Positions 6,601 to 64,000 of a stretch of 64,000 nt of DNA are shown here, piece by piece; position 1 is the first letter of the stretch; the number at the start of each line of letters is the position of its first letter. The notes beneath the pieces were generated by a model that was not told where the DNA came from, ran no database searches, and was given only the letters and a program-made list of their open reading frames with translations. The translations under genes were made by a program, and so were the position numbers. Origin of the DNA: Pseudomonadota bacterium (lineage in GTDB: Bacteria > Myxococcota_A > UBA9042); the NCBI GenBank assembly GCA_041163625.1, contig JBEARB010000067.1, forward strand, positions 426-64,425. Reading direction: 5' to 3'.

Positions 6601-6616
6601 CGCCCGTGCTCCCACA

Positions 6617-7954: not shown

Positions 7955-8051
7955 CGTCGTCCTCGAATGGTTCGCGTTCTCTCGCTGCCACGCCGCGGCC
8001 GAGGGGCTCCGCGCGGCGCGCCGGCAGAGTAGAAGTGCGTGCGGGCCGCGT

Positions 8052-9866: not shown

Positions 9867-9945
9867 CGTTCGGCGCGCAGGACTCGATTGACGCGGCCGC
9901 GAGGGTTGGCTACAACCCGCCGGCTCGCCCGACGTGGCGAGCGAC

Positions 9946-51388: not shown

Positions 51389-51976
51389 ATGCCTGTCCGT
51401 CGAATCGTCCGCACCCTCTTCGTCGCCGCCTTGGTCGCCCTGGTCGCCGCCTGCAGCACCGAGCCCGGTAGCTCCGGTACCGGCGGCAACGACGCCCTCG
51501 TCGACGCCAGCAGCGGCAACGACGCCGCCGCCGACACCGGCACCGGCGGCCAGGACACCGTCGCCACCGACACCTCCGCCGCCGACGGCACCGTCGCGGA
51601 CGGCGCCACCGACGACGGCGCCATCGCCGACACGACCGATCCGCAGGACACCGGCCCGACCGGCCCGACCTTCGGCGAGGTCTTCACCCAGGTGATCGTC
51701 GCCGAGGGCTGCAACGGCCAGTACTGCCACGGCGGCATCTGGCCCGACGAAGCCAAGGCCTACAAGCACCTGACGACGGCCACGGTGAAGCTGCCGGCCT
51801 GCAAGAGCGCGGCCTACGTGACCCCGGGGGATGCGAGCAAGAGCTTGTTCTGGCTGAAGATCGACAGCACCGCGGTGCACGGATGCGGCAACAAGATGCC
51901 CGTCGAGAAGAAGGGCGTGACGGCCGCGCAATCCAAGCTGGTCAAGGACTGGATCGAAGCGGGTGCCAAGCCTTAG
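51389..51976 (+). CDS. Small lipoprotein with a PSCyt1-like (planctomycete-type cytochrome c) domain carrying an atypical CX4CH motif.
   Basis: GGAG precedes ATG 51389. The signal peptide plus lipobox is LVAACS, followed by a D/T/G-rich linker. The sequence CNGQYCHGG...SKSLFWLKI...WIEAGAKP is paralogous to the 52638..53117 protein and to the C-terminus of the first gene. Confidence 0.6.
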   Translation: MPVRRIVRTLFVAALVALVAACSTEPGSSGTGGNDALVDASSGNDAAADTGTGGQDTVATDTSAADGTVADGATDDGAIADTTDPQDTGPTGPTFGEVFTQVIVAEGCNGQYCHGGIWPDEAKAYKHLTTATVKLPACKSAAYVTPGDASKSLFWLKIDSTAVHGCGNKMPVEKKGVTAAQSKLVKDWIEAGAKP

Positions 51977-52007
51977 ACTCGGCGCTCCCCCAGCTTTCGG
52001 AGCCCCG

Positions 52008-52628
52008 ATGTCGCCGTCCCGTTCTCCCCTCGTCCCGCTCGTCGTCCTGGTCGCGACGCTCGTCGCGACCGGCTGTGGTCGCACCATGCAGCCGCGTACC
52101 AGCCGCCAACTCGATCCGTCGACGTGGCTGCAAGGCGCGGTCCTCGACGCTTCGGACGCCTACCCGATCGCCTTCTGGGCCGATCCCTGCCGGCCGCCGG
52201 CCGAGCACGAAGTGGGTAGCGACACGATCCGCACGCAGACGTGGCTCTGCCATTTCGCACGCCAGCTCAACGCAACCGTCGCCAAGCGGGGGCTGTACGA
52301 TGCCCGCTTCGCCTCGGCCGGCAAGGATGTGCTCGGCGGTCGAATCGAGGCCGGTCTGCACGAGTATCCCTGCGAGCCCGATGCGGTCGATCGCCTCAAG
52401 CGCGAGGCCGTGCGGCTCGCGCGCATCGAGCTGGTCAAGGCCGAGACCACGACGCTGCGCGAGACGACCGCGGTTCGCTTCCGCATCGCCGTGATCGTCG
52501 GTACGCAGCGACTCGAGTACGAGACCAACTCGTCGGTCGTGAGCTGGGACGTCGACGTTTTTCAACGCCTCGGCACGATGATCCTCTCGGATACGCGCTT
52601 CTGGTCGGCCGTGAAGATGGCGCTCTAG
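52008..52628 (+). CDS. Hypothetical lipoprotein.
   Basis: GGAG precedes ATG 52008. The signal peptide plus lipobox is LVATGCG. It is coding-like, with no homology that I recognise. Confidence 0.5.
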   Translation: MSPSRSPLVPLVVLVATLVATGCGRTMQPRTSRQLDPSTWLQGAVLDASDAYPIAFWADPCRPPAEHEVGSDTIRTQTWLCHFARQLNATVAKRGLYDARFASAGKDVLGGRIEAGLHEYPCEPDAVDRLKREAVRLARIELVKAETTTLRETTAVRFRIAVIVGTQRLEYETNSSVVSWDVDVFQRLGTMILSDTRFWSAVKMAL

Positions 52629-52637
52629 GCGCGTCGA

Positions 52638-53117
52638 CTACTCGGCGCCGGCCTCGATCCAGGCCCGCAGCTTCGCGATGGCGTCGGGATCGCTGCCGCC
52701 CGTCTGCACCGTCATGTCCGAGATCGGGCCGGAGCCGTCGCAGCCCGCGGCGCTGGCGTTGTCGAATTTCTGCCGCACCGTCTCGTCGAGCACGGCCATG
52801 AGGAGGCTCTCGTCCGGCTTGCCGGCCACCACGAAGGGCACGCCGTTGCAGGCGGCCTGGTTGCCGACCAAGCCCGCAGCGCTGCCGCCCTTGAGGGTGG
52901 CGCGCGCCGTGTCGGCAGTGGAGAAGTCCAGGCTGGTCTCCGCCCCCGAAGGCTGATTGCCCGGCGAGTGGCAGCTCGCGCATTTGTTGAGGTAGCCGTC
53001 GTAGGCGGCGGTGAAGTCGTCGCCGGCGGCGATGGCCTCGCAGCCGGCGGCCGCGACGAGGGTGGCGAGCAGGGCGGCACGGCCCGGCAGCGAACGGAAC
53101 AGCGAGCGCATCGTCAT
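52638..53117 (-). CDS. Small lipoprotein with a PSCyt1-like cytochrome c domain (CXXCH).
   Basis: The signal peptide plus lipobox is LVAAAGCE. The sequence CASCHSPG...VAGKPDESLLMAVL...WIEAGAE carries the heme-binding motif. Its ATG overlaps the stop of the upstream giant gene (ATGA). Confidence 0.6.
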   Translation of the reverse strand: MTMRSLFRSLPGRAALLATLVAAAGCEAIAAGDDFTAAYDGYLNKCASCHSPGNQPSGAETSLDFSTADTARATLKGGSAAGLVGNQAACNGVPFVVAGKPDESLLMAVLDETVRQKFDNASAAGCDGSGPISDMTVQTGGSDPDAIAKLRAWIEAGAE

Positions 53118-56100
53118 CCTCCGGTTGCGGGCGTGGTGCGGCCCGCGGCGCGACCCGCGACCGGCGCACCGGCGCCGTCGTCGAGCAACGTCAAATAGAG
53201 CTGCAGCGCGTCGCGGTCGGGGCGCCAACGCGGTGCGCCGAATTGGCAGAGCGCAGCGTACACGGCCCGCAGATCCGGCAAAAGGGGCCGGCCGAGCGCC
53301 GAGAGCGGTGCGCCTGCGAACAGGTGCAGCTCGGCGGCGGAGCGCACCAGCCAAATCCGCTCCGGCGGGGCGGGTGTGCCGGTCGCGCGGGCGAAGCGAT
53401 CTGCGTCCGCCAGCCCGGCGCCGAGGTCGGCCATCGCGGCGCGATGCTCGCCGAGCAGGCTGCGAGCGACGCCGCGGTGCCAGAGCATCGCGGCGCGGTC
53501 GAGGCGGCCACGGCTCTCGTCGTCGGCGTCCGCCAGCGCGGCGATCCGTCGATCGAGCAGGGGCAACGCGTCGCGTGGGCGACCGAGCAGCAGCTCCGCT
53601 CGCGCGCGCAGGCCGTCGCGCAACGCGAGCAGGCGCTTGCGGTCGGCCTCCAGCGGCGGTTGATGCGGACGCCGACCCGCCCGCAGCGCGTCTTCGTCCG
53701 CCTTGGCGAGCGCGGCGTCTGCCGTCGCCAAGTGCGCCAGCGTCGCCTTCCCATCGGCCGAAGCCAGCGCCGCGGCCGCCGCGACCAGCGCAGCGCGCGC
53801 ACGATTCGCGGCGACGCGCTGCAGCTCGGGGCGTGCGAGCAGCGCCTCGGACGCAGCCCGCCCGCGCGCGAGATCGCCGGATTCGAACGCATAGAGCGCC
53901 GTCCGGTCGAGCAGCAGCGTGCGGTGGCGGGCAAGCGTCGGGGTGGCGTCGAGTTTCGCTTGCGCGCGCGCGAGCGTGGCCAACGCGGCGTCGGCGAGGC
54001 CGACGTGCCATTGCGAGCGCGCGGTCGCCACCAGCACCGCCAGCTCGGCCTCGGGGTCGACGAAGGGCAACGCCATGCGTCGCGCGAACGAGTCCAGGGC
54101 GATCCGATGGTTGCCGACGGCCTGCTGCAACAACCCGAGCGCGGCGAGTAGCGCGCCACGGATGCGCGCGTCGCCGTCGGCCAGCGCCAGGGCGAGGCGG
54201 TAGCGGTCGTGTGCCTGCACCGCGAAACCGCGCCCGTCGCCGAGCAGGAAGCGTTGGTGTGCCACCCAGCCGCGGAGCTGATGCAAGTGGCGATCGCCTG
54301 GTGCGCCTCGTTGCGCGACCGCCAGGTCGGCGTCGGCCGCCTCGAGGGCCTCGCGTCGAGCATCTGCGTCGCCGCCGCCGCCTTCGGCCAGCGGCCGCAG
54401 CCGCAGCCACGCGTGCACCGTCCGCAGCGCGGGATGATCCGGCTGCTTCGCGAAGCGCTTGGTGACCTGACCGAGCACGTCGCGGTTGCCCTCGCGATGC
54501 TGTGCCTCGACGTAGCCGAGCCAAGCCTCGAGGTCGTCGGTCTGCAGGGTCACGCCGTAGAAGTTGGTGCGAGCGTCGCGGATCTGTCCGGTGTTCCAGG
54601 AGATCCACGCGCGTTCGAGCACGACCTGCCGGAACAGGTCGACGGCCTGCGCGCGGCCCGGATGGTCCCGCGGGATCACCGAGACGTAGGAATTGGCGAA
54701 CTGGTAGAGCAGCCAAGCGCTGTCGACCGCGGCCGCGCGGGCCACCGTCGCCCGAACCAGGGCGCGGCGTCGATCGAGCTCCCGCCAGCTGCGGAAGATG
54801 GCGAAGAGTTGTTCGCGGACGGTCTCTTCCTCGGCGCTGCCCAAGCCCGCCGTCGCCGCCACAGGCGGTCCCCGCTTGGACTTCGGCGGTAGCGCCAGCA
54901 GCGCGCGTTCGACATCGAGCCGCATCGCGAGCTCTCCGTCGGGCGCTGCCTTGGCACGCAGCCGCTCGATGGCCTCCCGACGCGCGACGACGCCGCGGCC
55001 GCGGGTGGCCTGGCGAACCAAGCGCTCTGCCACATCCAGGCGCTCGGCCGGCCGAAGCGCGCGATGCTCGCCCGCAGCCAGCAACCAAGCATCCGCTTCG
55101 GTGTGTGCCTGAAGTGCCCGGAGCCGCGGCACACCGAGCAGGACCACCGCGAGGATGGCGTCGTGACCGAGCGTGTCGGCGGCGCCCAGCCCCTGCACCT
55201 GCGCGAGGGCGAGCTCCTCACGACCGAGGTCGTCCAGAATCTCGGCGCGCACGAGTCGCAGCCAGGCTTGTCCGTCCGTGCTCGATTCGGCCTCGCCCAG
55301 GGTCGCGAGGCGCTTGTCGGCACGGTCGGCGAAGCCTTCGTCGCGGGCACCGGCGTCGACCCGCGCCAGCTCCTTGCGGTGGGCCGAGAGCGCGACGAGC
55401 GCGCGGGCCGCGGCGCTGCGGGCCGCGGAACCTGGACCGCTGCCGGCCTCCGCGGCCGCCCGTCCGGCGTACCAGGACGCGAGGGCCGTGTCGTTGCCGG
55501 CGAGCGCGCGCACCGCAAGGGCGCCGAACGTGGCGGACCGCGCCTCCGGTTGCCGTTGCCGTTGCACGAGGTTCGCAAGGAGCAGGCTCGCGACCTGGGG
55601 GTCGGTGCTGTGGTCGAGCGCCGTGAGGATCCGCGCCTCGGCCCACGCGGCCGGAACGACGCCGTCGGGCGGCAGGCTGTAGATATCGAGTCGACCGCCG
55701 CGCTCGCAGGTCAGGTAGAGCGCGTCCGCGGCAGGCGCCGGGTAGCGGCAATTCCACGAGGCGGGCGTCAGCTGTACCGGTGCGTCGCCCCGCAGCGGTG
55801 CCGCGTCGCCGGTTCGAAAGGGCAGTCGGAAGATGACGCCATGGTCGTCTCCGTCGACGACGCCGTCGCCGTTGGTGTCGCGCAGCGATTGCGTGAAGTA
55901 GAGCCACCGCCCATCGGGTGAGAACGCCGGAAATCCGGTCTCGCCAGGCAGGTCGACGCGCACCGTGCGGGTCCGCTTGGGGGCATCGACGCGGACGACG
56001 TGCAGGCCTCGCCCGAGCTGCATCGCGAAGTGCACGCCGACGGCGGTGCTCGCACGCTCGACGGGCACGTAGACCAGCCAGCGTCCGTCCGGGCTGACGG

Positions 56101-56656
56101 TGGGGGTCGACACCGAGCGATCGACGAGCACCTCGCCGTCCGCGACGCCGCCCGCCTTGTCGCCCCGCAGCCACACGCGGCGCAGCACCTGCTCGCCGTG
56201 CATCGAGCCGCGGGCGACCACGCCGAGGCTGGTGCCGTCCGGGAACCAGAACGCCGAACTCTCCGCGGTCTGCGGTCCACCGAGGCAGCGCCGAGCGCCG
56301 GTCTCGAGCGTGCGCAGGCAGACATCGCCGGTCGCGTCGTCGCGCGTCGAGATGTAGAGCAGCGTGCGACCGTCGGGCGAGAGGCGGGGCAGGCTGATGT
56401 CGGCGCCCTCGTCGAAGAGCGAGCGGGCTACGCCGTCCGGCAGCGTCTGGCGGAACGCGCCGACGACGGCGTCGCGGTTGCTGGCGAACACGAGCGTGCG
56501 GCCGTCCGGGCCGAGGCTGCCGAGGAATTGGTCGCTGTCGCCGGCAGTCAGACGCCGCGGCTCGCGCAGGGCGGCGTCGGTGCCGACCGGTCCCATCATC
56601 GCCGCGTGAGCCGACACGGCGAGCAGGAGCGTCAGACCGAAGCTCAGCGCTCGCAC
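53114..56656 (-). CDS. Large periplasmic protein with an N-terminal TolB-like (PD40/WD40-like) beta-propeller and a long TPR-like alpha-helical domain.
   Basis: GTG 56656 is followed by a signal peptide (LSFGLTLLLAVSAHA). There are repeated SPDGRxLxY PD40 motifs (LSPDGRTLLYIS, VSPDGRWLVYV, FSPDGRWLYFT), then about 800 aa of Ala/Leu/Arg-rich helices. The upstream 116 codons are Arg-rich and were discarded. Confidence 0.7.
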   Translation of the reverse strand: MRALSFGLTLLLAVSAHAAMMGPVGTDAALREPRRLTAGDSDQFLGSLGPDGRTLVFASNRDAVVGAFRQTLPDGVARSLFDEGADISLPRLSPDGRTLLYISTRDDATGDVCLRTLETGARRCLGGPQTAESSAFWFPDGTSLGVVARGSMHGEQVLRRVWLRGDKAGGVADGEVLVDRSVSTPTVSPDGRWLVYVPVERASTAVGVHFAMQLGRGLHVVRVDAPKRTRTVRVDLPGETGFPAFSPDGRWLYFTQSLRDTNGDGVVDGDDHGVIFRLPFRTGDAAPLRGDAPVQLTPASWNCRYPAPAADALYLTCERGGRLDIYSLPPDGVVPAAWAEARILTALDHSTDPQVASLLLANLVQRQRQPEARSATFGALAVRALAGNDTALASWYAGRAAAEAGSGPGSAARSAAARALVALSAHRKELARVDAGARDEGFADRADKRLATLGEAESSTDGQAWLRLVRAEILDDLGREELALAQVQGLGAADTLGHDAILAVVLLGVPRLRALQAHTEADAWLLAAGEHRALRPAERLDVAERLVRQATRGRGVVARREAIERLRAKAAPDGELAMRLDVERALLALPPKSKRGPPVAATAGLGSAEEETVREQLFAIFRSWRELDRRRALVRATVARAAAVDSAWLLYQFANSYVSVIPRDHPGRAQAVDLFRQVVLERAWISWNTGQIRDARTNFYGVTLQTDDLEAWLGYVEAQHREGNRDVLGQVTKRFAKQPDHPALRTVHAWLRLRPLAEGGGGDADARREALEAADADLAVAQRGAPGDRHLHQLRGWVAHQRFLLGDGRGFAVQAHDRYRLALALADGDARIRGALLAALGLLQQAVGNHRIALDSFARRMALPFVDPEAELAVLVATARSQWHVGLADAALATLARAQAKLDATPTLARHRTLLLDRTALYAFESGDLARGRAASEALLARPELQRVAANRARAALVAAAAALASADGKATLAHLATADAALAKADEDALRAGRRPHQPPLEADRKRLLALRDGLRARAELLLGRPRDALPLLDRRIAALADADDESRGRLDRAAMLWHRGVARSLLGEHRAAMADLGAGLADADRFARATGTPAPPERIWLVRSAAELHLFAGAPLSALGRPLLPDLRAVYAALCQFGAPRWRPDRDALQLYLTLLDDGAGAPVAGRAAGRTTPATGG

Positions 56657-57258
56657 GTCTTCGGTCCCCAGACGCCGGCCTGTTGCTCGATCATCCCGCC
56701 GCAGACGACGCGCTCGAGGTGGCTCGTGCGCCAGCGGTCGCGCAGGGTCTCGTACGGGACGTCCTTGCGCTGCCGAGCCAACCACGCCCAGACCTGCCGT
56801 CGCGAGCGATTCTCCCGCTCGACCAGGCGGCCGACCTCGGCCGGATCGACCGCTCCGGCGCAGCGGCGGGGCAGGCTGCGCAACGTGCCGTCGCGGGCTT
56901 CGCCGACGCAGCCGCGCAGCAAGAGCGCGTCCAGTCGTTCCTGCTCGTCTTCGGGGCGCCGCGTCATCGCCGCGATCGCGTCGTGCTCGGCTTTCGGGCG
57001 CCACCCGGCCGCCTCCAGCGTGGCGCGTGTCAGCGGTGCCGGGCGCGGGTCGGTCGCTTTGTCGTCGAGGCGGCGCTCGTCGGCCTCGAAACGGCCGGCA
57101 GCCTCGGCTTCGAGCGCCGTGCGACGGTCGACCAAGACCACGTCGGGCGCGCGGATGCAGCCGGACGCGCCCACGACCCAGCCGAGGGCGAGCGCCGTCG
57201 TGACCCAGCGGGGCGACGACGCGGCGTGGCGGCGGTGGTGTACGGGGCGGGCGTTCAC
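56644..57258 (-). CDS. Lipoprotein with a C-terminal YdbL-like (DUF1318) domain and an N-terminal extension, possibly YnbE-like.
   Basis: The signal peptide plus lipobox is VVGASGCI. The C-terminal segments ENRSRRQVWAWLARQ...ETLRDRW and LERVVCGGMIEQQAGVWGPK resemble the YdbL family, as recalled from memory. It overlaps the AsmA-like gene stop by 4 nt. Confidence 0.5.
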   Translation of the reverse strand: MNARPVHHRRHAASSPRWVTTALALGWVVGASGCIRAPDVVLVDRRTALEAEAAGRFEADERRLDDKATDPRPAPLTRATLEAAGWRPKAEHDAIAAMTRRPEDEQERLDALLLRGCVGEARDGTLRSLPRRCAGAVDPAEVGRLVERENRSRRQVWAWLARQRKDVPYETLRDRWRTSHLERVVCGGMIEQQAGVWGPKTCER

Positions 57259-60200
57259 GGCGGCGGGTCTCCCAGCAGCGGCAGGACGGCGCGGGTCATC
57301 AGCGGGCCGAGCGCGATGCCGCGAATCTCATCGATGCGGACCAAGTCGGCAAGGCCACCGAGCTCGACCTTCACATCGGCGAAGCCGTGCCGGAAGCGTA
57401 GCCGCATCTGTTCGGGATAGCCCAGCTTCAGCGCCAAGCGCGCGCGGTTGGCCTGGAGGTCCTCGTGATAGGGGTCGAGCAGGTCCAGCGCGGCCAGCAG
57501 GTGGCCCTTCGACAGGCGCAGCACCTGGGCGCGGCCCTGCACGGCGAGACGCCACGGCTGCAGCTCGAGCGCGGCGTTGGCGTCGATGCGTCCGGGCTGA
57601 TTCGGTAGGCGCAGGCCCGTGACGTTGCCGCGCAGCAGGACGCGCGTGTCGGCGCCGTCCCACTCGATCGCGCATTGGCCGGTGAGCTGACCGCCGAGCA
57701 GGCGCATCTCGAGTTGGTCGAGGCGGAACACGTCGCGGTCGACGCTGGCGTTGGCGGCGAGCGGGCCGACCTGGTGCTTGCCCAGCCGCAGCGACTGCAC
57801 CGCCAGGAAGTGGTCGCCGGTCAGGAAGGGCTGCTGGTCGACGTAGCGCCATCGGGCCCAGAGGCTGCGCCGCCCGCCGCCGAGCGGACGGACCTGCATC
57901 CCTTCGCGCGCGAGCTCGAAGCGCAGCGGGATCTCGCCCTGCACGCCCACGATCTCGGCGTCGGTGGCGGCATGGCGGGCCCCCACGCCCTCGAGGTGGG
58001 CGCGCGCTTGCACACCGAGTACGCGGAAATCGCCGGTCTCGATCGCGAACGGCAGGCGCACGACGCCCTGGGTCCGGACCCCGAAGAGCTCGGGCAGGCG
58101 GTCGAGGTCCTGCCGGAGTTCGCCGTCGACTGCGGCGCCGCGCGCACCCGGGACGCCGCCGTCGTCGTCGTCCGAGAGGCCGATGCGATCGATGCGACCG
58201 CGCGCCCAACCCGAGCTCCCGGTGGCTTCGTTGCTGAAGGTCGCGCGCTCGAGTGCGAGTTTGCCGACCCGGTCGACATGGGCGCGGACGGTGGCGCGCG
58301 CGTCGGCGACCGGCAGCGCCGGCATCAGGTCCTGATCGAGGCGCTCGAGCTTCGCCTCGCCCTGCAGTTCCAGCCCGCGCAGGCTGCGGTCCAGTGGCCC
58401 CTTGACCCGTAGCGTGCCGCCGGCCTTGCGGAGGTCGAAGGGGTGGGCGCCGAACGCGCCACGCATCCGCAGCATGGCGCCCTCGAAGGTGGCCTCGAAG
58501 CGGCCTTGGCTCACGCTGAGCTGCATGCCGCCGTCGACCTGCGGCGCGGCGACGTCGAGACCCTCCTGATGGCAGCGCAGGCCGTAGACGGTCGCTTTGC
58601 CCTCGGCGCGGACGTCGGCCGCGGCCGGCCGATCGGCCCACGCCGCGAGTGTCGCCGGGCGGTCCAGCGCGGCCAGCGGCAGCCGAATCGCAAGCGTGCC
58701 CTCGCCGTGCAGCCGCTCGCCGTCGATGCACGGCACGCCGGCGGCCAGGGCGGCACCCAGCTTGCCGAGCTTGCGCACCTTGCCGCTGCCCTCGAGCTGC
58801 CAGCCGTCCCCGCGCCGGACGGCCAAGCTCGCCTCGCCACGGGTCTTGCCGTCCAGGTCCAGCCGCGCGCGCAACGTCGCGGAGCGCAGGCGCTGGTCCG
58901 CCAGGGCGACCTCGACCTCGGCCTGCGCCCGGGTCGCCGGGGTGCGTGCGCCGTCGACGCGCAGGCCCTCGGGCAGCAGCACGATCGTTGCGTTCAGACC
59001 GGTCGCGCGCACGGTGCCCGACATCGTCGAGCGCAGGCGTTGGCCGCTGACCACGCGCTGTTGCATTCGCAGCTCGTAGCCGTCGAGCTGCAGGGCGCTC
59101 TCGTGCTCCGCCCGGGCGGCGAGGAGCCATCGCGCCCAATCGTCGGCCGGCTTCGCGTGCGGCAACGCCAGGCTGCCCCGGCTCTCGACGCCGACGTGGC
59201 TGAGCTTGCGCACGACGACGGCGCCGTCGCGCGGGAGCCGGACACCGACGGTCGCGGCGAGCTGCAGCGGGTCGCGCACGCCGAGCCGACCATCCCATCG
59301 CAGCGGCGCGTCCGCCGGTCGGCGCGCGGTGAGCGCGGCGTCCATGCCCGGGCCGGTGGCGCGGAGCGTCAGACGATCGAGCTCGAATGCTCTGACGGCC
59401 GTGGGATCGGCGCCGGCGCGGGCGGCAAGGCCACGCAGGTCCAACTCCGCGCGCGCGGTGCCGGGCAGCGCGTGCCGCCCGACGCGCAGCTGCGCCACGT
59501 CGCCGCGCGCGTGGGCCTCGTCGCAACGCCAAGATCCGTCGGCGCCTCGGCGAACGCCCGCGGCAGACAGCTCCGCCTTCGCCTCGCTGAGCGCGATCGC
59601 CTCGCCGCCGAAATCGGCGTCGAGCGACTCGGCCGCGACCTCGAGCCGTTGTCGTGCCGGGTCGCCCTCTGCCTGCAGCGACGCTGCGCGCACTTCGGCC
59701 GACGCCCCCGCTGCCCGTCCGCTCGCGCGCTCGACACCGGCGTCGATCCGCCCGGCGAGCCCGCCGGCCCAGCGCGCATCGAGCCGCGGCGACTCGAGCG
59801 TGGCGCGCGCGTCGCCGACGGCGCCCGCGAGTTCTCGGGCGCGCAGCGCGACCGTGGCGCCGGGCTCGGGCTTCAGCGATGGCCAGCCCGCTGCGGCGTC
59901 CACCGCCACGGTGGCGTCGCGGACGCGGGCCGTCACGCCGCGCGCGGCGGCGTCCAGGTCGCGCGTCTCCGCGCGCAGGCCGACGACCAGCCGGTCGCCC
60001 AGACCGTGCGCCTGCAGCGTGGCCTTCGCGTGCGTCACCGCCAGCCTCGCCGTCGGCGCGCGCACGTCGACCGCGTCGAGCGCGACGGTCGCGGTGAGGT
60101 CGGCAGCCAGCGCCACCGCGGAGATCTCGCGTGCCGCACCGCTGGCGGTCGCGGTGAAAAGGCCCGGCCATCGCGCGGCGAGGGTGAGCGCTTCCAGTCG

Positions 60201-61370
60201 CGGGCGCAGGGGGGCCCCGGCGGTGCTCGGGTCGTCCACCGCACCGCGGAGCGAAAAGCGCGCCTCTCGGCTCGGTTCCTCCGTCGAGAGCGTGACGCGG
60301 CCGCCCTCGACGGTGACGCTGGCGCCCGGCCCGCCGACGTGGACCTCGACCCGAACGGCCGCGAAATCCTCGGCGCCGATGCAGCCCCGCGCGCCGCCGA
60401 GCCAGCGCAGCGACGGGCTCCGCACCCCGGCCTGGAGCCGAACGCGGTCGCGGGCGAGCTCGAGCCGCAGGGTCGGCGTCGCGCGCGCCTCGGCGGTGGC
60501 GGCGTCGGCCGGGGCCGCGGCGACGGCGCGGGTCCACGCATCGGCCAGGCCGACGGCGTCGTCGACCCAGGGCTGCAGCTCGGGCGGCAGCGCGTCCGGC
60601 CGCGACGCCAGCGCCTCGGCCACGCGGTCGAGCAGCCAGGTCCGCGGGAGCCCGTCGATCCGCACCTGCCACGGCGCCCCGTCGGTCGTCATCGTGGCGA
60701 CAGTCTCGGCGTCGCCGTCCGCGCGTAGGCGGATGCCTCCGCCGTCGATGGTGAGGCGTGCATCGGTTCCGGCGAGCGCGGCTCGAACCGAGATGCCCTG
60801 CACGGACAGCGCGTCGAGCGCGTAGCCGCGGGCCGCGTCGAGCGCGCGCAGCCAGCCCGAGGGCGGCACCGGCGGGCTCGGCTCGCTCGGCGGCGGGAGC
60901 GTCAGCGCGCGCGCCCAGCTGCCGCCACCCTCGCCGCCGACCACGACACCGATGTGCACGCCGCGCACGGTGATCGCGTCCACGCGCCGCGTCTGCTCGA
61001 GCAGGGCGCCCAGGCGCCAACGGATCTCGACTTCGTCGACGGCCAGCAGGGGGCCGACGCGCGCGTCGTCCGCCGGCGGATTCTCGATGCGCAGTCCGCG
61101 CAGCACCAAGCCCGACGCGCTCACCGCGCCGGACTCGTAGCGCAACGTCGCGCCGGCCAGGTCCTGCGCCAGCGCGGCCACGCGGCCCTGCACGAGCGGG
61201 TGCGCGAGGTGGCCGGCCAGCCACGCGCCCACGCCGATCGCGCCGATCGCGCCGAGCAGGCAGGCGATCGCGAGCCGTCGCAGCCAACGTCGTCGCGGAC
61301 GCGGCGGCGTGACCGGATGGCGTTCCTGCGCGGCGGCGGGCGGCAGCTCGAACGGCGGCTCCTGCGACAA
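57255..61370 (-). CDS. Giant (1371 aa) N-terminally anchored envelope protein, AsmA-family (YdbH/TamB-like).
   Basis: TTG 61370 is preceded by a strong SD, GGGAGG. An N-terminal TM helix (LAIACLLGAIGAIGVGAWLAG) follows a basic stretch (RPRRRW). The body is very long, Ala/Gly/Arg/Leu/Asp-rich and beta-rich. Its genomic coupling to a YdbL-like gene mirrors the E. coli ydbH-ynbE-ydbL arrangement. The upstream 651 track codons are Arg-rich and overlap the previous gene in another frame. Confidence 0.55.
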   Translation of the reverse strand: MSQEPPFELPPAAAQERHPVTPPRPRRRWLRRLAIACLLGAIGAIGVGAWLAGHLAHPLVQGRVAALAQDLAGATLRYESGAVSASGLVLRGLRIENPPADDARVGPLLAVDEVEIRWRLGALLEQTRRVDAITVRGVHIGVVVGGEGGGSWARALTLPPPSEPSPPVPPSGWLRALDAARGYALDALSVQGISVRAALAGTDARLTIDGGGIRLRADGDAETVATMTTDGAPWQVRIDGLPRTWLLDRVAEALASRPDALPPELQPWVDDAVGLADAWTRAVAAAPADAATAEARATPTLRLELARDRVRLQAGVRSPSLRWLGGARGCIGAEDFAAVRVEVHVGGPGASVTVEGGRVTLSTEEPSREARFSLRGAVDDPSTAGAPLRPRLEALTLAARWPGLFTATASGAAREISAVALAADLTATVALDAVDVRAPTARLAVTHAKATLQAHGLGDRLVVGLRAETRDLDAAARGVTARVRDATVAVDAAAGWPSLKPEPGATVALRARELAGAVGDARATLESPRLDARWAGGLAGRIDAGVERASGRAAGASAEVRAASLQAEGDPARQRLEVAAESLDADFGGEAIALSEAKAELSAAGVRRGADGSWRCDEAHARGDVAQLRVGRHALPGTARAELDLRGLAARAGADPTAVRAFELDRLTLRATGPGMDAALTARRPADAPLRWDGRLGVRDPLQLAATVGVRLPRDGAVVVRKLSHVGVESRGSLALPHAKPADDWARWLLAARAEHESALQLDGYELRMQQRVVSGQRLRSTMSGTVRATGLNATIVLLPEGLRVDGARTPATRAQAEVEVALADQRLRSATLRARLDLDGKTRGEASLAVRRGDGWQLEGSGKVRKLGKLGAALAAGVPCIDGERLHGEGTLAIRLPLAALDRPATLAAWADRPAAADVRAEGKATVYGLRCHQEGLDVAAPQVDGGMQLSVSQGRFEATFEGAMLRMRGAFGAHPFDLRKAGGTLRVKGPLDRSLRGLELQGEAKLERLDQDLMPALPVADARATVRAHVDRVGKLALERATFSNEATGSSGWARGRIDRIGLSDDDDGGVPGARGAAVDGELRQDLDRLPELFGVRTQGVVRLPFAIETGDFRVLGVQARAHLEGVGARHAATDAEIVGVQGEIPLRFELAREGMQVRPLGGGRRSLWARWRYVDQQPFLTGDHFLAVQSLRLGKHQVGPLAANASVDRDVFRLDQLEMRLLGGQLTGQCAIEWDGADTRVLLRGNVTGLRLPNQPGRIDANAALELQPWRLAVQGRAQVLRLSKGHLLAALDLLDPYHEDLQANRARLALKLGYPEQMRLRFRHGFADVKVELGGLADLVRIDEIRGIALGPLMTRAVLPLLGDPPP

Positions 61371-61375
61371 CGATT

Positions 61376-61382
61376 CCCTCCC
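61376..61382 (-). promoter_or_regulatory. Shine-Dalgarno sequence (GGGAGGG) for the AsmA-like gene.
   Basis: The reverse complement of ccctccc at 61376..61382 lies 6 nt upstream of the TTG start at 61370. Confidence 0.4.
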
Positions 61383-61405
61383 GACGCGATGGCGCGCGCG
61401 CGACC

Positions 61406-63478
61406 TTAGTGAGGTGTGCGCGCAGTTGCCAGCGCCGCGAGCAGGGCGAAGCCGCCGAGCGCGCCCAGCGCCGTCAATCCGAGCGTCGGCAGCGCTACCG
61501 CGACGAGCGCGCCCGCGACGAGCGCGCCCAAGCCATCCAGGCCGACCAAGCGATCGGCGGGCATGCCCGGCTCGGCCAGCAGCGCCGCGAACGCCAGCGC
61601 GCCGGCGCTGCCGCACACCGCGGCCGCGGCAGCCGCCGCGAGTAGCGCGAGGTCGCCCGCCGCGCTCGCCAGCGCGCCGTCGATCGGCCCGGCGAGTGGG
61701 CCGAGGGCGAGCATCGCCGCGAGCGTCGTCCCCGCGCCGAGCCAGCGCCGGCGAGCGGCGTCGTGCGCCCACGCCGTCGCCGCCGCGCCCGCCAAGAGCG
61801 CGGCGGCCAGCATCCACGACGCACCCGTGCCCGGGTGCCCGCTCCACGGCACGCCGCGGGCCAACGCGACGATCTGCAGCGTCGTGCCGCCGAGCCCCGC
61901 CGCCACACCGGCGTAGGGCAGAGCGCGCGGCAGGGGCGTCGCCCCCCGGCGCCGGCGCAGCAGCGGCAGCGCGAGCAGCAGCAAGGCCGCGGCGACCCAC
62001 GCCTCGGCGGGCCAGCCGAAGGCGGCGTCGTACGCCAGCACGGGGCGATCGTCTGCCGGCACGCGCCCCGCCGTCGCGACCGGTCCGTCCGTCGCGCCAG
62101 CGTCCCGCGCGGCCACGAGGACGGCGGAGAGCGCCTCTTTCTCCTCGCTCGCGGCACACAGCACGCGCGCCGCGCTCTGCTCCGGTGCGTCCGGCAGCTG
62201 CGCGCACGCCGCGTGGCCCGGGCCGAACGCCGCGTCCATCGCCCGCAGCGTGGCGGTGCCGAGCGCGGCGCGGTTGTGCACGACCAGCACGCGCCCAGCC
62301 GGCTCCAGCACGCCGCGAGCGAGCGCGAGCGCCTCGCGAGTCAGCAGGCGCGCGTCGACGTGGGTGCGGCCGCGCAAGCCCGCCGGCGCGGTCTCGACCA
62401 AGCCCAAGAGCACGCAATCCCACCGCCGGTCGGTCGCACGTGCGGCGGCGAGGAAGCGGCGCCCCTCTTCCGTGTGCCAGCGCACCCGGGCGTCGCGCAG
62501 CGCGGTGAGGTGCGAAGGGGCGTGTCGGCGCAGCAACTCGGCCATCGCGGCGTTCTGCTCGACCGCGTCGACCCTTTGGGCCCCGGCCTGCAGCGCGACG
62601 ACGACGTCCAGGCCAGCGCCTGCGCCCAGGACGAGCACGCGGCCGCCGCGGCAGCCGTCGAGGGCGGGCCGCCGCAAGCCGACCTCGCGCTCGAGGGCGG
62701 CGTCGTCGAAGCGTGTGGCGTGGCCGTCCCAGCGCGGCGCGCGCGCGACGTGCATCCCGTCGGTGTACAGGCGCAGGGCGGCGGCGTCGGGAGCGCCGAC
62801 CAGGTCGGTGCGTCCGGCCGGACCGAAGGCGGTCGCGCGGACGGGCTCGCCGCTCCGCGCGACGTCGGCGTCGAGGTGACGCTGCACGCCGACGTCGGCC
62901 GGTAGCTTTGCGGCGACCCAGGGCGACGGCGCCAGCGCGAGGCAGGTCAACGCGCCGGCCGTGGCGATGACGCGACCGCTGCGCCGGGTCGCCGAGACCG
63001 CCGTCGCCGCGGCGAGCGCGCTCGCGCCCGCCAGCAGCGCCGCCGCGCCGCCGCCTCGCGACAGCGCCAGCGGCCCGACGACGCCCAGGCCCAGCGCGGC
63101 GCCGACCAGCTCGGCGACGTAGCGGAGGTGTCGCCGACGCGCGTCGGGGGCGGCGGCGAGTGCGGACGCGGAGACGGAGCCGAAGGCGACGAAGGGCACG
63201 GCGAAGCTCGCGGTGCCCCAGGCGAGGTCCGAGCGCGGCAGCCAGAACGCGGCGCCGGCGGCGGCCCCGGCGCCGAGCGCGAGCGCAACGGACCCCGACG
63301 GCGAGGGTCGACGCGCCGCCCACAGCGCGCCGACGGCGAGCCCGAACAGGGCGACCGCCAGCGTCGCGTAGGCCAAGCCGTGATAGAGCAGCACGCTGCC
63401 CAGGCGAAGCACGCCGGCTTCGCAGGCGCCGAGGCCGGCCGCGGCCAGCAGCAGCGCCGCCCGGACACGGCGCTCCAT
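61406..63478 (-). CDS. Membrane-anchored spermidine-synthase-like (polyamine aminopropyltransferase family) protein.
   Basis: ATG 63478 overlaps the ppc stop. There are about 7 N-terminal TM helices. A class I methyltransferase/SpeE-like core is present (RVLVLGAGAGLDVVVALQAGAQRVDAVEQNAAMAELL), and more TM helices occur at the C-terminus. Confidence 0.65.
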   Translation of the reverse strand: MERRVRAALLLAAAGLGACEAGVLRLGSVLLYHGLAYATLAVALFGLAVGALWAARRPSPSGSVALALGAGAAAGAAFWLPRSDLAWGTASFAVPFVAFGSVSASALAAAPDARRRHLRYVAELVGAALGLGVVGPLALSRGGGAAALLAGASALAAATAVSATRRSGRVIATAGALTCLALAPSPWVAAKLPADVGVQRHLDADVARSGEPVRATAFGPAGRTDLVGAPDAAALRLYTDGMHVARAPRWDGHATRFDDAALEREVGLRRPALDGCRGGRVLVLGAGAGLDVVVALQAGAQRVDAVEQNAAMAELLRRHAPSHLTALRDARVRWHTEEGRRFLAAARATDRRWDCVLLGLVETAPAGLRGRTHVDARLLTREALALARGVLEPAGRVLVVHNRAALGTATLRAMDAAFGPGHAACAQLPDAPEQSAARVLCAASEEKEALSAVLVAARDAGATDGPVATAGRVPADDRPVLAYDAAFGWPAEAWVAAALLLLALPLLRRRRGATPLPRALPYAGVAAGLGGTTLQIVALARGVPWSGHPGTGASWMLAAALLAGAAATAWAHDAARRRWLGAGTTLAAMLALGPLAGPIDGALASAAGDLALLAAAAAAAVCGSAGALAFAALLAEPGMPADRLVGLDGLGALVAGALVAVALPTLGLTALGALGGFALLAALATARTPH

Positions 63479-63999
63479 CAGCCCGTGTTTCGCATTCCGG
63501 CGGCGACGCCGTTGATGGTGACGGCCAATGCGTCCACCAGGGTCTGCGAGGCGGACTCGCCGGCGCGGCGATAGCGCGCGAGCAGCTCGACCTGCAGCAG
63601 ATTCAGCGGATCGACATAGGGGTTGCGGACCGCGATCGAGCGCGCGAGGACCGGGTTGTCTGCCAGGAGCGACGACGTGCCGAGCGTGGCGAGTACGGCT
63701 TCGCGGGTCTCGGCCAAATCGTGGGCGAGCTGTGGACCGAGCGTCTGCGCCTGCTCCGGGGCGAGGCGCGCGTCGTAGACTGCGGCGATCTCGGGGGAGG
63801 CCTTGGCCAACACCATCTCGACCATGCCGAGGGTGGTGCGAAAAAAGCGCCACTGGCGCGCCATCTCGTGCAGCAGCGCCGGGTCGCGTTCGGTCCGAGC
63901 CCACTGCAGCGCGTGGCCGACGCCGTACCAAGCCGGCAGCATCAGCCGCGTCTGCGTCCAGGCGAAGACCCACGGGATCGCACGCAGGCTCTGCACGCC
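63478..63999 (-). CDS. ppc: Phosphoenolpyruvate carboxylase, C-terminal 172 aa; the 5' end lies beyond the window.
   Basis: The sequence AIPWVFAWTQTRLMLPAWYGVG ... VRNPYVDPLNLLQVELL ... MRNTG is the conserved PEPC C-terminus, including the terminal NTG. Confidence 0.85.
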   Translation of the reverse strand, partial: GVQSLRAIPWVFAWTQTRLMLPAWYGVGHALQWARTERDPALLHEMARQWRFFRTTLGMVEMVLAKASPEIAAVYDARLAPEQAQTLGPQLAHDLAETREAVLATLGTSSLLADNPVLARSIAVRNPYVDPLNLLQVELLARYRRAGESASQTLVDALAVTINGVAAGMRNTG

Positions 64000-64000
64000 A

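What the first reader, a model, noticed from the sequence alone, without database searches (positions are those of the whole stretch)
52638..63478. Tightly coupled envelope locus: ppc, SpeE-like membrane protein, AsmA-like giant, YnbE/YdbL-like lipoprotein, TolB/TPR giant, cytochrome-like lipoprotein
Six minus-strand genes are chained by overlapping or near-overlapping start and stop codons (63478, 57255/57258, 56644/56656, 53114/53117), which suggests one transcription and translation unit.

The core resembles the E. coli ydbH-ynbE-ydbL module, recently implicated in phospholipid transport between membranes. Here it differs in three ways:
- The AsmA-like protein is 1371 aa.
- The YdbL-like protein is an enlarged lipoprotein of 204 aa. 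Its N-terminal part (CIRAPDVVLVDRR...) may be a fused YnbE-like segment.
- It is followed by a 1180-aa TolB-propeller/TPR protein and a PSCyt1-type heme-motif lipoprotein.

I do not know of a described system that combines lipid-transport-like and heme lipoprotein components in this way.
Basis: partly seen in the sequence, partly recalled or inferred. Interest (0 to 1): 0.7.

Follow-up and report, generated by a model that had tools for sequence, protein, structure and literature searches.

The report
Myxobacterial AsmA-like, lipidated-YdbL, PD40 cassette
The genes are real and tightly packed, but the conserved unit is three of them: a giant AsmA-like inner-membrane protein, a lipoprotein carrying a YdbL domain, and a giant PD40-propeller protein, kept together across about 80 myxobacterial species and probably a variant of the E. 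coli YdbH-YnbE-YdbL bridge between the two membranes.

Summary
The six minus-strand genes exist at the stated coordinates, with the stated sizes and near-overlapping junctions.

Only three of them are co-conserved:
- a 1371-aa protein with a single N-terminal membrane helix and strand-type amphipathic periodicity. It belongs to the AsmA-like superfamily on weak but repeated N-terminal matches across its family (AsmA, DUF748, TamB, GspN). No YdbH-type or TamB-type C-terminal domain was found.
- a 204-aa lipoprotein. Its C-terminal half is a YdbL domain: DUF1318 scores above Pfam's cut-off, and the only significant PDB fold match is the E. coli YdbL crystal structure. Its N-terminal ~50 residues, a very conserved hydrophobic-stretch-plus-helix module just after the lipid-anchor cysteine, show no sequence match to YnbE.
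- a secreted 1180-aa protein with a TolB-like PD40 propeller. No TPR match was found in 12 orthologues.

In 81 Myxococcota loci the giant is adjacent in 73 of 75 assessable cases and the PD40 protein in 76 of 76. The CxxCH lipoprotein is present in 21 of 60. The membrane methyltransferase-like gene occurs only in close relatives, and ppc was not found upstream in the four relatives' loci whose gene tables I inspected.

Best reading: a YdbH/YnbE/YdbL-type bridge with YdbL tethered to the outer membrane and a new third subunit. This is a new variant of a known kind. The structure prediction of the giant failed, so the hydrophobic groove is not shown.

The parts
57255..61370 (-). Core gene 1: a 1371-aa protein with an inner-membrane anchor and strand-type amphipathic periodicity, assigned to the AsmA-like superfamily.
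   Evidence: ORF and independent gene calls. Pfam on 36 family members: DUF748 in 23 (best 2.4e-11) and AsmA in 22 (best 7.6e-9), all below the curated cut-offs. The members and the window protein checked individually matched mostly in the first ~160 residues. NCBIfam: TamB in 3 of 36 (3.7e-10) and GspN in 2 of 36. The family has 455 representatives at 50% identity, mostly 1150-1550 aa where full-length. Period-2 hydrophobic pattern in 72% of windows, against 74% for TamB and 64% for YdbH.
61203..61286 (-). The giant's single N-terminal transmembrane helix (residues ~29-56), preceded by RPRRRWLRR.
   Evidence: Hydropathy scan. Apart from one marginal window at residue 416 (1.68 against a threshold of 1.6), this is the only 19-residue stretch with Kyte-Doolittle above 1.6.
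60879..61301 (-). The giant's N-terminal region (residues 24-164), which matches the N-terminal part of the AsmA and DUF748 profiles.
   Evidence: AsmA E = 0.0029 and DUF748 E = 0.007 for the window protein. Stronger matches occur in orthologues.
57258..57863 (-). The giant's C-terminal ~200 residues, the best-conserved part of the family. No known domain matches it.
   Evidence: Conservation profile of 59 full-length orthologues: 0.54-0.67 per 50-residue block. Invariant columns cluster here. No YdbH-type or TamB/DUF490-type C-terminal family was listed in any Pfam scan.
56644..57258 (-). Core gene 2: a 204-aa lipoprotein made of an N-terminal conserved module and a C-terminal YdbL (DUF1318) domain.
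57004..57159 (-). Lipid-anchor Cys34 and the family-specific N-terminal module (residues 34-85). Motif: C-[IFV]-[KRS]-[AP]-P-[DE]-[IV]-V-x-V-D-R-x-T-A-L-E-x-Q-A-x-G, followed by P-x-P-L-T.
   Evidence: Invariant or nearly invariant across 30 clusters and about 80 species. Both search patterns that the search for related loci chose as most conserved lie here. AF2 confidence is only 59-77, with short helices. No known family matches this part.
56647..56946 (-). YdbL/DUF1318 domain (residues ~105-204) with four invariant cysteines (C117, C133, C186, C202).
   Evidence: Pfam DUF1318 30.9 bits (cut-off 27), found in 29 of 30 family members. AF2 pLDDT 92-98 from residue 111. Foldseek against 28oj (E. 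coli YdbL): E = 3e-4, probability 1.0, rmsd 2.5 A.
53114..56656 (-). Core gene 3: a secreted 1180-aa protein with a TolB-like PD40 propeller followed by ~840 uncharacterised residues.
   Evidence: A Sec-type signal peptide, read by eye (MRALSFGLTLLLAVSAHA). PD40 E = 1.4e-20. Profile matches to TolB structures at 5e-6. PD40 is found in 12 of 12 orthologues and no TPR family in any. Adjacent to the lipoprotein in 76 of 76 assessable loci.
55637..56569 (-). PD40 beta-propeller region (residues ~30-340).
   Evidence: Four PD40 stretches. The TolB propeller aligns to profile positions 27-201.
52638..53117 (-). Accessory gene found in some lineages only: a 157/159-aa lipoprotein with one CxxCH heme-attachment motif (CASCH, 52968-52982).
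   Evidence: PSCyt1 19.3 bits, below the cut-off of 22. One orthologue passes at 23.9 bits. CxxCH is present in 23 of 24 orthologues, most with a lipobox. Present in 21 of 60 assessable loci.
61406..63478 (-). A neighbour, not part of the core: a 690-aa multi-pass membrane protein with a class-I methyltransferase / aminopropyltransferase-like central domain.
   Evidence: NCBIfam PRK03612 E = 1.4e-4 (20 bits against a cut-off of 472). The L007 orthologue matches Methyltransf_25 at 1.8e-4. Found upstream of the giant in the window and in L007 only; weak partial matches in L011 and L017 lie kilobases away from the giant.
63478..64000 (-). A neighbour, not part of the core: the 3' end of ppc (phosphoenolpyruvate carboxylase).
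   Evidence: Pfam PEPcase E = 7e-67, profile positions 740-919 of 919. Not upstream of the cassette in L007, L008, L009 or the P0030 locus.

Best explanation
The conserved unit is a three-gene envelope cassette found in Myxococcota. I read it as a variant of the YdbH-YnbE-YdbL type of bridge between the inner and outer membranes.

Shown:
- Protein 1 has one N-terminal transmembrane helix and a ~1300-residue remainder, presumed periplasmic, with strand-type amphipathic periodicity. Its N-terminal region matches AsmA-like superfamily profiles.
- Protein 2 is a lipoprotein whose C-terminal half has the YdbL fold.
- Protein 3 is secreted and begins with a TolB-like PD40 propeller.
- The three genes stay adjacent and co-directional across about 80 species, and their start and stop codons overlap in the window and in the four relatives' loci with gene calls.

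Inferred:
- The giant forms a long hydrophobic beta-groove that reaches from the inner membrane across the periplasm.
- The lipoprotein is sorted to the outer membrane and caps the giant's conserved C-terminal domain.
- Its conserved hydrophobic stretch (residues 39-44), directly after the lipid anchor, would do the beta-strand augmentation that YnbE does in E. coli.
- Its acidic helix (residues 46-69) would occupy the basic pocket of its own, or a neighbouring, YdbL domain.
- Tethering YdbL in one polypeptide would fix the YdbL-to-anchor ratio at 1:1, a ratio that is critical in E. coli.
- At 1371 aa against 879 aa for YdbH, the giant may reach the outer membrane without a multimerising YnbE.
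- The PD40 protein would be a third structural or positioning subunit.
- Cargo is presumed to be phospholipid or another lipid.

The CxxCH lipoprotein is an accessory in some lineages. ppc and the membrane methyltransferase-like gene are only neighbours.
For: YdbL domain:
- Pfam DUF1318 scores above its cut-off and is found in 29 of 30 family members.
- hhalign covers mature E. coli YdbL residues 22-107 with E = 1.5e-4.
- AF2 pLDDT is 92-98 for this domain.
- The only significant PDB match is the YdbL crystal structure 28oj, target-normalised TM 0.78.
- In the alignment, invariant R153 sits at E. coli R61, N150 at N58, W157 at Y65 and L160 at L68. PMC13464000 names R61 and L68 among the residues at the YnbE-binding interface.

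Lipoprotein features:
- The lipobox Cys34 is invariant, and the module just after it is the most conserved part of the protein.

Giant:
- One N-terminal transmembrane helix and TamB-like period-2 amphipathicity.
- AsmA or DUF748 matches in 22-23 of 36 members, E down to 2.4e-11.
- TamB (3.7e-10) and GspN matches in NCBIfam.
- JGI names one orthologue TamB.

Gene order:
- The giant is adjacent in 73 of 75 assessable loci and the PD40 protein in 76 of 76. The loci include Polyangiaceae, Haliangiales, Kofleriaceae, Anaeromyxobacter and cultured Hyalangium versicolor.
- Start/stop overlaps are conserved.

E. coli precedent:
- ydbH-ynbE-ydbL is an operon that encodes an AsmA-like bridge, an outer-membrane lipoprotein that adds a beta-strand, and YdbL, which binds the YnbE helix (PMC11126948, PMC13464000).
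Against: - The groove is not shown. The AF2 model of residues 172-1371, built from a 4-sequence alignment, failed (pLDDT 39.8). Its Foldseek matches are meaningless, with TM about 0.1.
- Every AsmA-like match is below the curated cut-off, and those checked are mostly confined to the N-terminal ~160 residues.
- There is no similarity to E. coli YdbH, TamB or YhdP by hhalign with a 59-sequence profile, and no YdbH-type C-terminal family in any Pfam scan.
- The N-terminal module of the lipoprotein has no detectable similarity to YnbE. Its hydrophobic stretch is not predicted as a strand in the monomer model.
- No contact between the three proteins was tested.
- Outer-membrane sorting is assumed from the lipobox alone.
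- The known YdbH system has nothing that explains the PD40 protein.
Confidence: 0.55

Rival explanations
1. The cassette is a TamB-like protein-assembly or export machine rather than a lipid bridge. The AsmA-like giant would help insert or export outer-membrane or surface proteins, possibly the PD40 giant itself, and the YdbL-domain lipoprotein would be its outer-membrane receptor.
For: The strongest named match among family members is NCBIfam 'autotransporter assembly complex protein TamB' (3.7e-10), and GspN also matches. A 2025 paper title held in the library reports that GspN helps transport lipoproteins to the cell surface. JGI names one orthologue TamB. The cassette has a large secreted partner protein that the lipid-bridge model does not explain.
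Against: No DUF490/TamB C-terminal family was listed in any Pfam scan. No Omp85/TamA-like gene appears in the four relatives' loci with gene tables. The only partner with a confident family assignment is YdbL, which belongs to the YdbH system.
Confidence: 0.2
2. The giant is not a groove-forming transporter. It would be some other beta-rich periplasmic or surface structure, such as a fibre, strut or adhesin-like scaffold. The YdbL-domain lipoprotein would act as a tethered chaperone that controls beta-strand polymerisation at the outer membrane.
For: AsmA-like similarity is weak and mostly limited to the N-terminal ~160 residues. The rest has no known domain. YdbL is proposed to restrain amyloid-like multimerisation of YnbE (PMC11126948).
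Against: The combination of an N-terminal membrane anchor, amphipathic beta periodicity along the whole length, and size is typical of AsmA-like proteins. Several independent AsmA-superfamily models match family members (DUF748, AsmA, YhdP, TamB, GspN).
Confidence: 0.12
3. One reading: all six genes, from ppc to the heme lipoprotein, form one functional system that couples lipid transport to heme or redox chemistry.
For: The genes are tightly packed and co-directional in this window. The CxxCH gene overlaps or abuts the PD40 gene in L007, L008 and L009.
Against: ppc is not upstream in any of the four relatives' loci with gene tables. The membrane protein is upstream in the closest relatives only. 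The heme-motif gene is missing from 39 of 60 assessable loci, including most Polyangiaceae and Anaeromyxobacter loci.
Confidence: 0.05

Closest known systems
E. coli YdbH-YnbE-YdbL intermembrane bridge (PMC11126948; PMC13464000)
   Same: An inner-membrane-anchored AsmA-like protein is encoded directly upstream of a lipoprotein and a YdbL/DUF1318 domain, with start/stop overlaps. The YdbL fold is conserved, as is the residue aligned with R61. The lipoprotein part has a lipid-anchor cysteine, a short hydrophobic stretch and an acidic helix, the same order of elements as in YnbE.
   Different: - The giant is 1371 aa against 879 aa.
- It has no detectable YdbH-type C-terminal domain and no similarity to YdbH.
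- There is no separate YnbE gene.
- YdbL is lipid-anchored and about twice as long, with four invariant cysteines.
- The N-terminal module has no sequence similarity to YnbE.
- A third conserved gene, the PD40 giant, has no counterpart in E. coli.
TamB / TamAB, and TamL in Bacteroidota
   Same: Comparable size (1259 aa in E. coli), an N-terminal anchor and amphipathic beta periodicity. Some family members match the NCBIfam TamB model. It also needs an outer-membrane partner.
   Different: No DUF490 C-terminal family was listed in the Pfam scans. No Omp85 partner (TamA or TamL) is encoded in the four relatives' loci with gene tables. The partner here is a YdbL-domain lipoprotein.
YhdP
   Same: A long AsmA-like protein that has been proposed to span the periplasm by itself (PMC11126948 discussion). 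One family member matches the Pfam YhdP profile weakly (E = 0.0049).
   Different: No meaningful sequence match to E. coli YhdP. No outer-membrane partner is described for YhdP in the papers read, whereas this family is always paired with two partner genes.
TolB (Tol-Pal system)
   Same: The N-terminal ~310 residues of the 1180-aa protein are a PD40 propeller. Their best matches among solved structures are TolB chains (5e-6).
   Different: The score is 48 bits against a TolB equivalog cut-off of 343. There is no tol-pal gene context. About 840 further residues have no known domain.
PSCyt1 (Planctomycete cytochrome c) domain
   Same: A single CxxCH near the N-terminus, followed by a pattern like 'GKPxxSLL'. 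One orthologue passes the Pfam cut-off.
   Different: Here it is a stand-alone ~155-aa lipoprotein. The window protein scores below the cut-off (19.3 against 22). Heme attachment has not been tested.

Membership tests
AsmA-like superfamily (Pfam AsmA, DUF748, YhdP; NCBIfam TamB, GspN) | An N-terminal transmembrane anchor followed by a large periplasmic domain. | tested here: met
   A single hydrophobic helix at residues ~29-56, after a basic stretch. Apart from one marginal window at residue 416, no other transmembrane-like segment was found.
AsmA-like superfamily (Pfam AsmA, DUF748, YhdP; NCBIfam TamB, GspN) | A sequence match to a family profile at or above the curated cut-off. | tested here: inconclusive
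   Window protein: AsmA 16.9 bits (cut-off 29.8) and DUF748 14.9 bits (cut-off 50). Family level: DUF748 in 23 of 36 and AsmA in 22 of 36, best 2.4e-11 (a 7e-11 match scored 41.4 bits), still below the cut-offs. NCBIfam TamB in 3 of 36 at 3.7e-10. The matches are consistent but none reaches a cut-off.
AsmA-like superfamily (Pfam AsmA, DUF748, YhdP; NCBIfam TamB, GspN) | An elongated repeating beta-groove with a hydrophobic concave face. | tested here: inconclusive
   AF2 with a 4-sequence alignment gave pLDDT 39.8 and the fold search was meaningless. The only indirect support is the period-2 amphipathic pattern: 72% of windows, against 74% for TamB.
YdbH family (Pfam DctA-YdbH, named from my own knowledge) | A YdbH-type C-terminal domain, or similarity to YdbH. 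| tested here: not met
   No such family was listed for 7 members at E up to 1, or for 36 members at E up to 0.01. hhalign against E. coli YdbH gave probability below 1%.
YdbH family (Pfam DctA-YdbH, named from my own knowledge) | [quoted passage not shown] | tested here: inconclusive
   A gene with a YdbL domain is directly downstream and overlaps by 4 nt. There is no separate ynbE: no room in the locus, and no phmmer hit anywhere in the window.
YdbL / DUF1318 | A Pfam DUF1318 match above the gathering score. | tested here: met
   30.9 bits against 27, residues 107-198. Found in 29 of 30 family members.
YdbL / DUF1318 | The YdbL fold. | tested here: met
   AF2 pLDDT 92-98 for the domain. Foldseek against 28oj (E. 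coli YdbL crystal structure): E = 3.1e-4, probability 1.00, target-normalised TM 0.78, rmsd 2.5 A.
YdbL / DUF1318 | Conservation of the residues that bind the YnbE helix (E60, R61, L68, K70, N72 and others; PMC13464000). | tested here: inconclusive
   From the alignment: R61 aligns with invariant R153, L68 with L160, K70 with R162. E60 aligns with a variable position (S152) and N72 with R164. Binding itself was not tested.
YdbL / DUF1318 | A small soluble periplasmic protein (~90 aa when mature). | tested here: not met
   Here the protein has an invariant lipobox cysteine and a ~70-residue N-terminal extension. All 30 relatives are 176-212 aa.
YnbE (Pfam YnbE-like lipoprotein family, named from my own knowledge) | Sequence similarity to YnbE. 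| tested here: not met
   No YnbE family was listed among the Pfam matches of 30 members at E up to 1. hhalign against E. coli YnbE aligned only the lipobox.
YnbE (Pfam YnbE-like lipoprotein family, named from my own knowledge) | A lipoprotein whose strand augments the AsmA-like partner and whose helix binds YdbL. | not testable with these tools
   The order of elements is similar (Cys34, hydrophobic 39-44, acidic helix 46-69).
TolB | A PD40 beta-propeller. | tested here: met
   PD40 E = 1.4e-20 with 4 stretches. TolB chains are the best PDB sequence matches.
TolB | The equivalog score and the Tol-Pal gene context. | tested here: not met
   TIGR02800 scores 48 bits against a cut-off of 343. 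No tol or pal genes lie nearby.
TPR repeat proteins | TPR-family profile matches. | tested here: not met
   No TPR family matched in the window protein or in 11 orthologues.
c-type cytochrome / PSCyt1 | A CxxCH heme-attachment motif. | tested here: met
   CASCH in the window protein. The motif is present in 23 of 24 orthologues.
c-type cytochrome / PSCyt1 | A profile match above the cut-off. | tested here: inconclusive
   Window protein 19.3 bits against 22. The L008 orthologue scores 23.9 bits. Of the other nine scanned, three matched only Cytochrome_CBB3 weakly, five matched nothing and one gave an evidently spurious match.
Spermidine synthase (SpeE) | An equivalog-level match. | tested here: not met
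   PRK03612 scores 20.4 bits against a cut-off of 472. TIGR00417 scores 12 bits against 249.55. Only a generic class-I methyltransferase-like motif is present.

The most novel reading that the evidence does not exclude
In Myxococcota the YdbL domain would not be a free periplasmic chaperone. It would be a permanent, outer-membrane-tethered terminal subunit of an AsmA-like bridge. One lipoprotein would combine the anchor, the groove-capping stretch and the YdbL domain. A previously unknown third subunit, the PD40-propeller giant, would complete a three-part trans-envelope conduit whose family-specific docking domain sits at the giant's C-terminus. In some lineages a heme lipoprotein is added, which hints at a redox-linked or heme-dependent accessory function at the outer-membrane end.
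Probability: 0.3. Interest if true: 0.75.

Novelty: new variant of a known kind. Interest (0 to 1): 0.55.

Why it matters
How AsmA-like bridges dock at the outer membrane, and what YdbL does, are open questions that so far rest mainly on E. coli work.

This cassette is a natural experiment on both. In a whole phylum the YdbL domain is lipid-anchored and sits in one polypeptide with a strongly conserved anchor-proximal module, next to a much longer AsmA-like protein, and always with a third partner.

If the model holds, three things would follow:
- YdbL-type domains can be stable parts of the bridge, not only chaperones.
- Fusion would be one way to fix the stoichiometry that is critical in E. 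coli.
- A new class of partner, a PD40 protein, would be added to bacterial bridge-like lipid transporters.

The system is testable. The cassette is present in cultured Hyalangium versicolor, and MAGs labelled Anaeromyxobacter also carry it.

If the model is wrong, the result is still a widespread, unannotated envelope cassette. Of the six named cluster members that belong to the giant family, five are labelled 'hypothetical protein' and one 'TamB'.

Tried and rejected
- Searches scanned the membrane protein in the wrong frame, because I gave 61406-63482. Their '0 families' result for that protein is void. The scan was repeated correctly.
- Word-indexed homologue searches with the giant returned only 4 proteins, both as a single sequence and as a profile. 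Low-complexity Ala/Arg words swamped the candidate list, and the second search was wasted.
- The AF2 run on giant residues 172-1371 could use only those 4 sequences and failed (pLDDT 39.8).
- Foldseek of that model against the PDB gave LptD, ApoB100 and porin matches with TM about 0.1 and rmsd about 38 A. I do not count these as evidence.
- The afdb50 fold library was not available.
- Profile searches of the giant family against PDB sequences found nothing.
- hhalign of a 59-sequence giant profile against single E. coli YdbH, TamB, YhdP and AsmA sequences gave nothing significant. The best was AsmA at E = 0.046.
- A metagenome scan meant to build a diverse YdbH profile returned only E. coli sequences at 99-100% identity, so it was useless.
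- The promoter and terminator scan was at chance level.
- Literature searches for DUF1318 with AsmA, AsmA-like with Myxococcus, and Myxococcus with PD40 and TPR found nothing relevant.

Rejected readings:
- The weak cinnamycin/duramycin lantibiotic match inside the giant (E = 0.0012) is treated as spurious.
- The idea that the PD40 protein is a TolB orthologue is rejected on score and gene context.

Full report
**Observation**

The region has 69-79% G+C, so many spurious ORFs appear. I read the junctions directly from the sequence.

- ppc stops at 63478 and shares one base with the ATG of a 690-aa membrane protein (61406-63478).
- A 33-nt gap holding GGGAGGG precedes the TTG start of a 1371-aa protein (57255-61370).
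- That gene's stop overlaps the GTG start of a 204-aa protein (56644-57258) by 4 nt (GTGA).
- The 204-aa gene overlaps the GTG start of an 1180-aa protein (53114-56656) by 13 nt.
- That gene's stop overlaps or abuts the ATG of a 157/159-aa protein (52638-53117 or 53111).

Gene calls made independently on other assemblies of the same sequence give 1371, 204, 1180 and 157 aa. The source is an NCBI metagenome-assembled genome labelled 'Pseudomonadota bacterium' (locus tags RIT45_919 and RIT45_920). Its relatives are all of Myxococcota type. The promoter and terminator scan was at chance level, so co-transcription is inferred from gene packing only.

One error of mine: I gave the membrane protein in the wrong frame. 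The correct scans are.

**The 204-aa protein**

It has a signal peptide and an invariant lipobox cysteine (Cys34).

Its C-terminal half is a true YdbL domain.
- Pfam DUF1318 scores 30.9 bits against a cut-off of 27, and 29 of 30 family members match.
- A 16-sequence profile aligns to E. coli YdbL residues 22-107, almost the whole mature protein, with E = 1.5e-4.
- AlphaFold2 with a 30-sequence alignment predicts residues ~111-204 at pLDDT 92-98.
- The only significant PDB match of that model is the E. coli YdbL crystal structure 28oj (E = 3.1e-4, probability 1.0, target-normalised TM 0.78, rmsd 2.5 A).
- In the alignment, invariant R153 falls on E. coli R61 and L160 on L68. The YdbL paper names both among the residues at the interface with the YnbE C-terminal helix (PMC13464000).
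- Four cysteines in the domain are invariant. I suggest two disulfides, as an inference.

The N-terminal ~50 mature residues are the most conserved part of the protein.
- The motif is C-[IFV]-[KRS]-[AP]-P-[DE]-[IV]-V-x-V-D-R-x-T-A-L-E-x-Q-A-x-G, seen across about 80 species.
- Both patterns that the locus finder picked as most conserved lie in this part.
- The module matches nothing known. No YnbE family appeared in the Pfam scan of 30 members, and hhalign against E. coli YnbE aligned only the lipobox.
- In the monomer model it has low confidence (pLDDT 59-77) with short helices. For comparison, monomeric YnbE is also predicted to be largely unstructured and forms its strand only in complex with YdbH (PMC11126948).

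It is not a demonstrated homology.

**The 1371-aa protein**

- It has one N-terminal hydrophobic helix (residues ~29-56) after a basic stretch.
- Its hydrophobic pattern has a period of two residues in 72% of windows along the family profile. E. coli TamB gives 74%, YdbH 64% and YhdP 60% by the same measure.
- The window protein matches AsmA (E = 0.0029) and DUF748 (E = 0.007) only weakly, at its N-terminus.
- The family is large: 455 representatives at 50% identity, 223 of them below 1e-30, and the full-length ones mostly 1150-1550 aa.
- Among 36 members, 23 match DUF748 (best 2.4e-11), 22 match AsmA (best 7.6e-9) and one matches YhdP. All are below the curated cut-offs, and those checked individually mostly lie in the N-terminal ~160 residues.
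- NCBIfam adds TamB (3 of 36, 3.7e-10) and Leptospira-type GspN (2 of 36).

These are independent models from one superfamily, so I accept membership at superfamily level as probable.

More specific assignments fail.
- No YdbH-type or DUF490/TamB C-terminal family appears in any Pfam scan.
- A 59-sequence profile does not match E. coli YdbH, TamB or YhdP.
- No PDB sequence relative exists.
- The best-conserved part, the C-terminal ~200 residues, is specific to this family.

The structure prediction failed because only four sequences could be supplied (pLDDT 39.8). The fold search on that model is worthless. The groove itself is therefore not shown.

**The 1180-aa protein**

- It has a Sec-type signal peptide, read by eye.
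- It carries a PD40 propeller over roughly residues 30-340 (PD40 E = 1.4e-20). TolB chains are the best PDB matches at 5e-6.
- It is far below the TolB equivalog cut-off (48 bits against 343).
- Neither it nor 11 orthologues match any TPR family.
- The remaining ~840 residues are uncharacterised.

**The small protein**

- It has a lipobox and one CxxCH, kept in 23 of 24 orthologues.
- PSCyt1 scores 19.3 bits against a cut-off of 22 for the window protein. One orthologue passes at 23.9 bits.

**The membrane protein and ppc**

- The 690-aa membrane protein has only a generic class-I methyltransferase / aminopropyltransferase-like signal (PRK03612, 20 bits against 472).
- ppc is confirmed.

**Conservation**

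A scan of one genome per GTDB species with the lipoprotein alignment found 82 species. Most records carry myxobacterial names: Polyangiaceae, Haliangiales, Kofleriaceae, Anaeromyxobacter and cultured Hyalangium versicolor. A few are labelled Enterobacteriaceae, Proteobacteria or simply 'bacterium', and I take those to be mislabelled.

Among 81 unique loci:
- The giant lies directly upstream on the same strand in 73 of 75 assessable loci.
- The PD40 protein lies directly downstream in 76 of 76.
- The CxxCH gene is present in 21 of 60.

One exception, L055, has about 7.6 kb inserted between the giant and the lipoprotein. In its close relative L051 no giant was detected within the 10 kb upstream.

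The membrane methyltransferase-like gene is upstream of the giant in the window and in L007, its second-closest relative in the scan; L011, the closest, showed only a weak match about 5.5 kb further upstream. ppc is not upstream in any of the four relatives' loci whose gene tables I inspected. Overlaps of 1-10 nt between the core genes recur in those four loci.

The conserved unit is therefore three genes, with the heme-motif lipoprotein as an accessory in some lineages.

**Mechanism**

In E. coli, ydbH-ynbE-ydbL encodes three proteins (PMC11126948, PMC13464000).
- YdbH is an inner-membrane-anchored AsmA-like protein that is too short to span the periplasm.
- YnbE is an outer-membrane lipoprotein that extends YdbH's groove by beta-strand augmentation and can multimerise.
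- YdbL is a periplasmic protein that binds the YnbE C-terminal helix. Its ratio to YnbE is critical.

The myxobacterial cassette has the same logic with different parts.
- The anchored AsmA-like protein is longer.
- The YdbL domain is tethered by a lipid anchor.
- Between the anchor and that domain sits a conserved hydrophobic stretch followed by an acidic helix.

I propose that the lipoprotein is the outer-membrane end of the bridge. It would dock on the giant's family-specific C-terminal domain, with YdbL built in at a 1:1 ratio. The PD40 protein would be a third structural or positioning subunit.

- Shown: the domain identities, the membrane-anchoring signals and the conserved gene order.
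- Inferred: the groove, the contacts between the proteins, outer-membrane sorting and the cargo.
- Rivals: a TamB-like protein-assembly role, or a non-groove beta-rich scaffold controlled by a tethered YdbL chaperone.

**Comparison with what is known, and novelty**

- The lipoprotein is a member of DUF1318/YdbL by sequence and by fold, but it fails the 'small soluble periplasmic protein' feature.
- The giant is a probable AsmA-like superfamily member, but it is not a YdbH-family or TamB-family member by any test I could run.
- YnbE membership is not met.
- Full-text searches found no paper that links DUF1318 with AsmA-like proteins outside the E. coli and Pseudomonas work, and none on AsmA-like proteins in Myxococcus.
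- Of the six named cluster members that belong to the giant family, five are labelled 'hypothetical protein' and one 'TamB'.

I rate this a new variant of a known kind. It is moderately interesting to specialists in envelope biogenesis, and it is testable in cultured myxobacteria.

Noticed in passing
L053 and L062 (both from MAG SMAG_U15880, contigs DATIQP010000086 and DATIQP010000023): One genome carries two separate giant-lipoprotein-PD40 cassettes, so the module has paralogues in at least some Polyangiaceae.
   Followed up: no
L055:2316-9937, and its relative L051: In L055 about 7.6 kb, including a 1663-aa plus-strand ORF (4946-9937), lies between the giant and the lipoprotein. The giant there is split across two frames; this MAG was assembled from nanopore reads. 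In L051 no giant was detected within the 10 kb upstream. The L055 lineage is the only one in which the giant gene was seen separated from the other two.
   Followed up: partly
window 51963-52628 (+): A 221-aa lipoprotein-like ORF (LVATGC lipobox) converges on the cassette. Its stop lies 9 nt from the stop of the CxxCH gene. Two small opposite-strand genes are also downstream in L001, L007 and L008, followed by an SNF2-family helicase and TruD in L007 and L008.
   Followed up: no
L012, L013, L025; the window's own NCBI record (RIT45_919/920): Several public records that hold this Myxococcota-type cassette are titled 'uncultured Enterobacteriaceae bacterium' or 'Pseudomonadota bacterium'. These taxonomic labels look wrong.
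   Followed up: no
L007:2126-5763; L008:3808-5463: The gene just upstream of the giant varies. It is a methyltransferase-like membrane protein in the window and in L007 (where a MORN-repeat protein precedes it), a 551-aa MORN-repeat protein in L008, and unrelated genes in L009 and the P0030 locus.
   Followed up: partly
window 58002-58136 (giant residues 1079-1123): A weak match to the cinnamycin/duramycin lantibiotic precursor families (NCBIfam E = 0.0012; Pfam DurB-like E = 0.069). It lies inside a conserved region of a 1371-aa protein and is most likely a chance or compositional match.
   Followed up: no
window 56647-56946 (lipoprotein C117, C133, C186, C202): Four cysteines are invariant in the YdbL domain of this family. 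The aligned mature part of E. coli YdbL (residues 22-107) shows no cysteine. This suggests two disulfides specific to the myxobacterial form.
   Followed up: no
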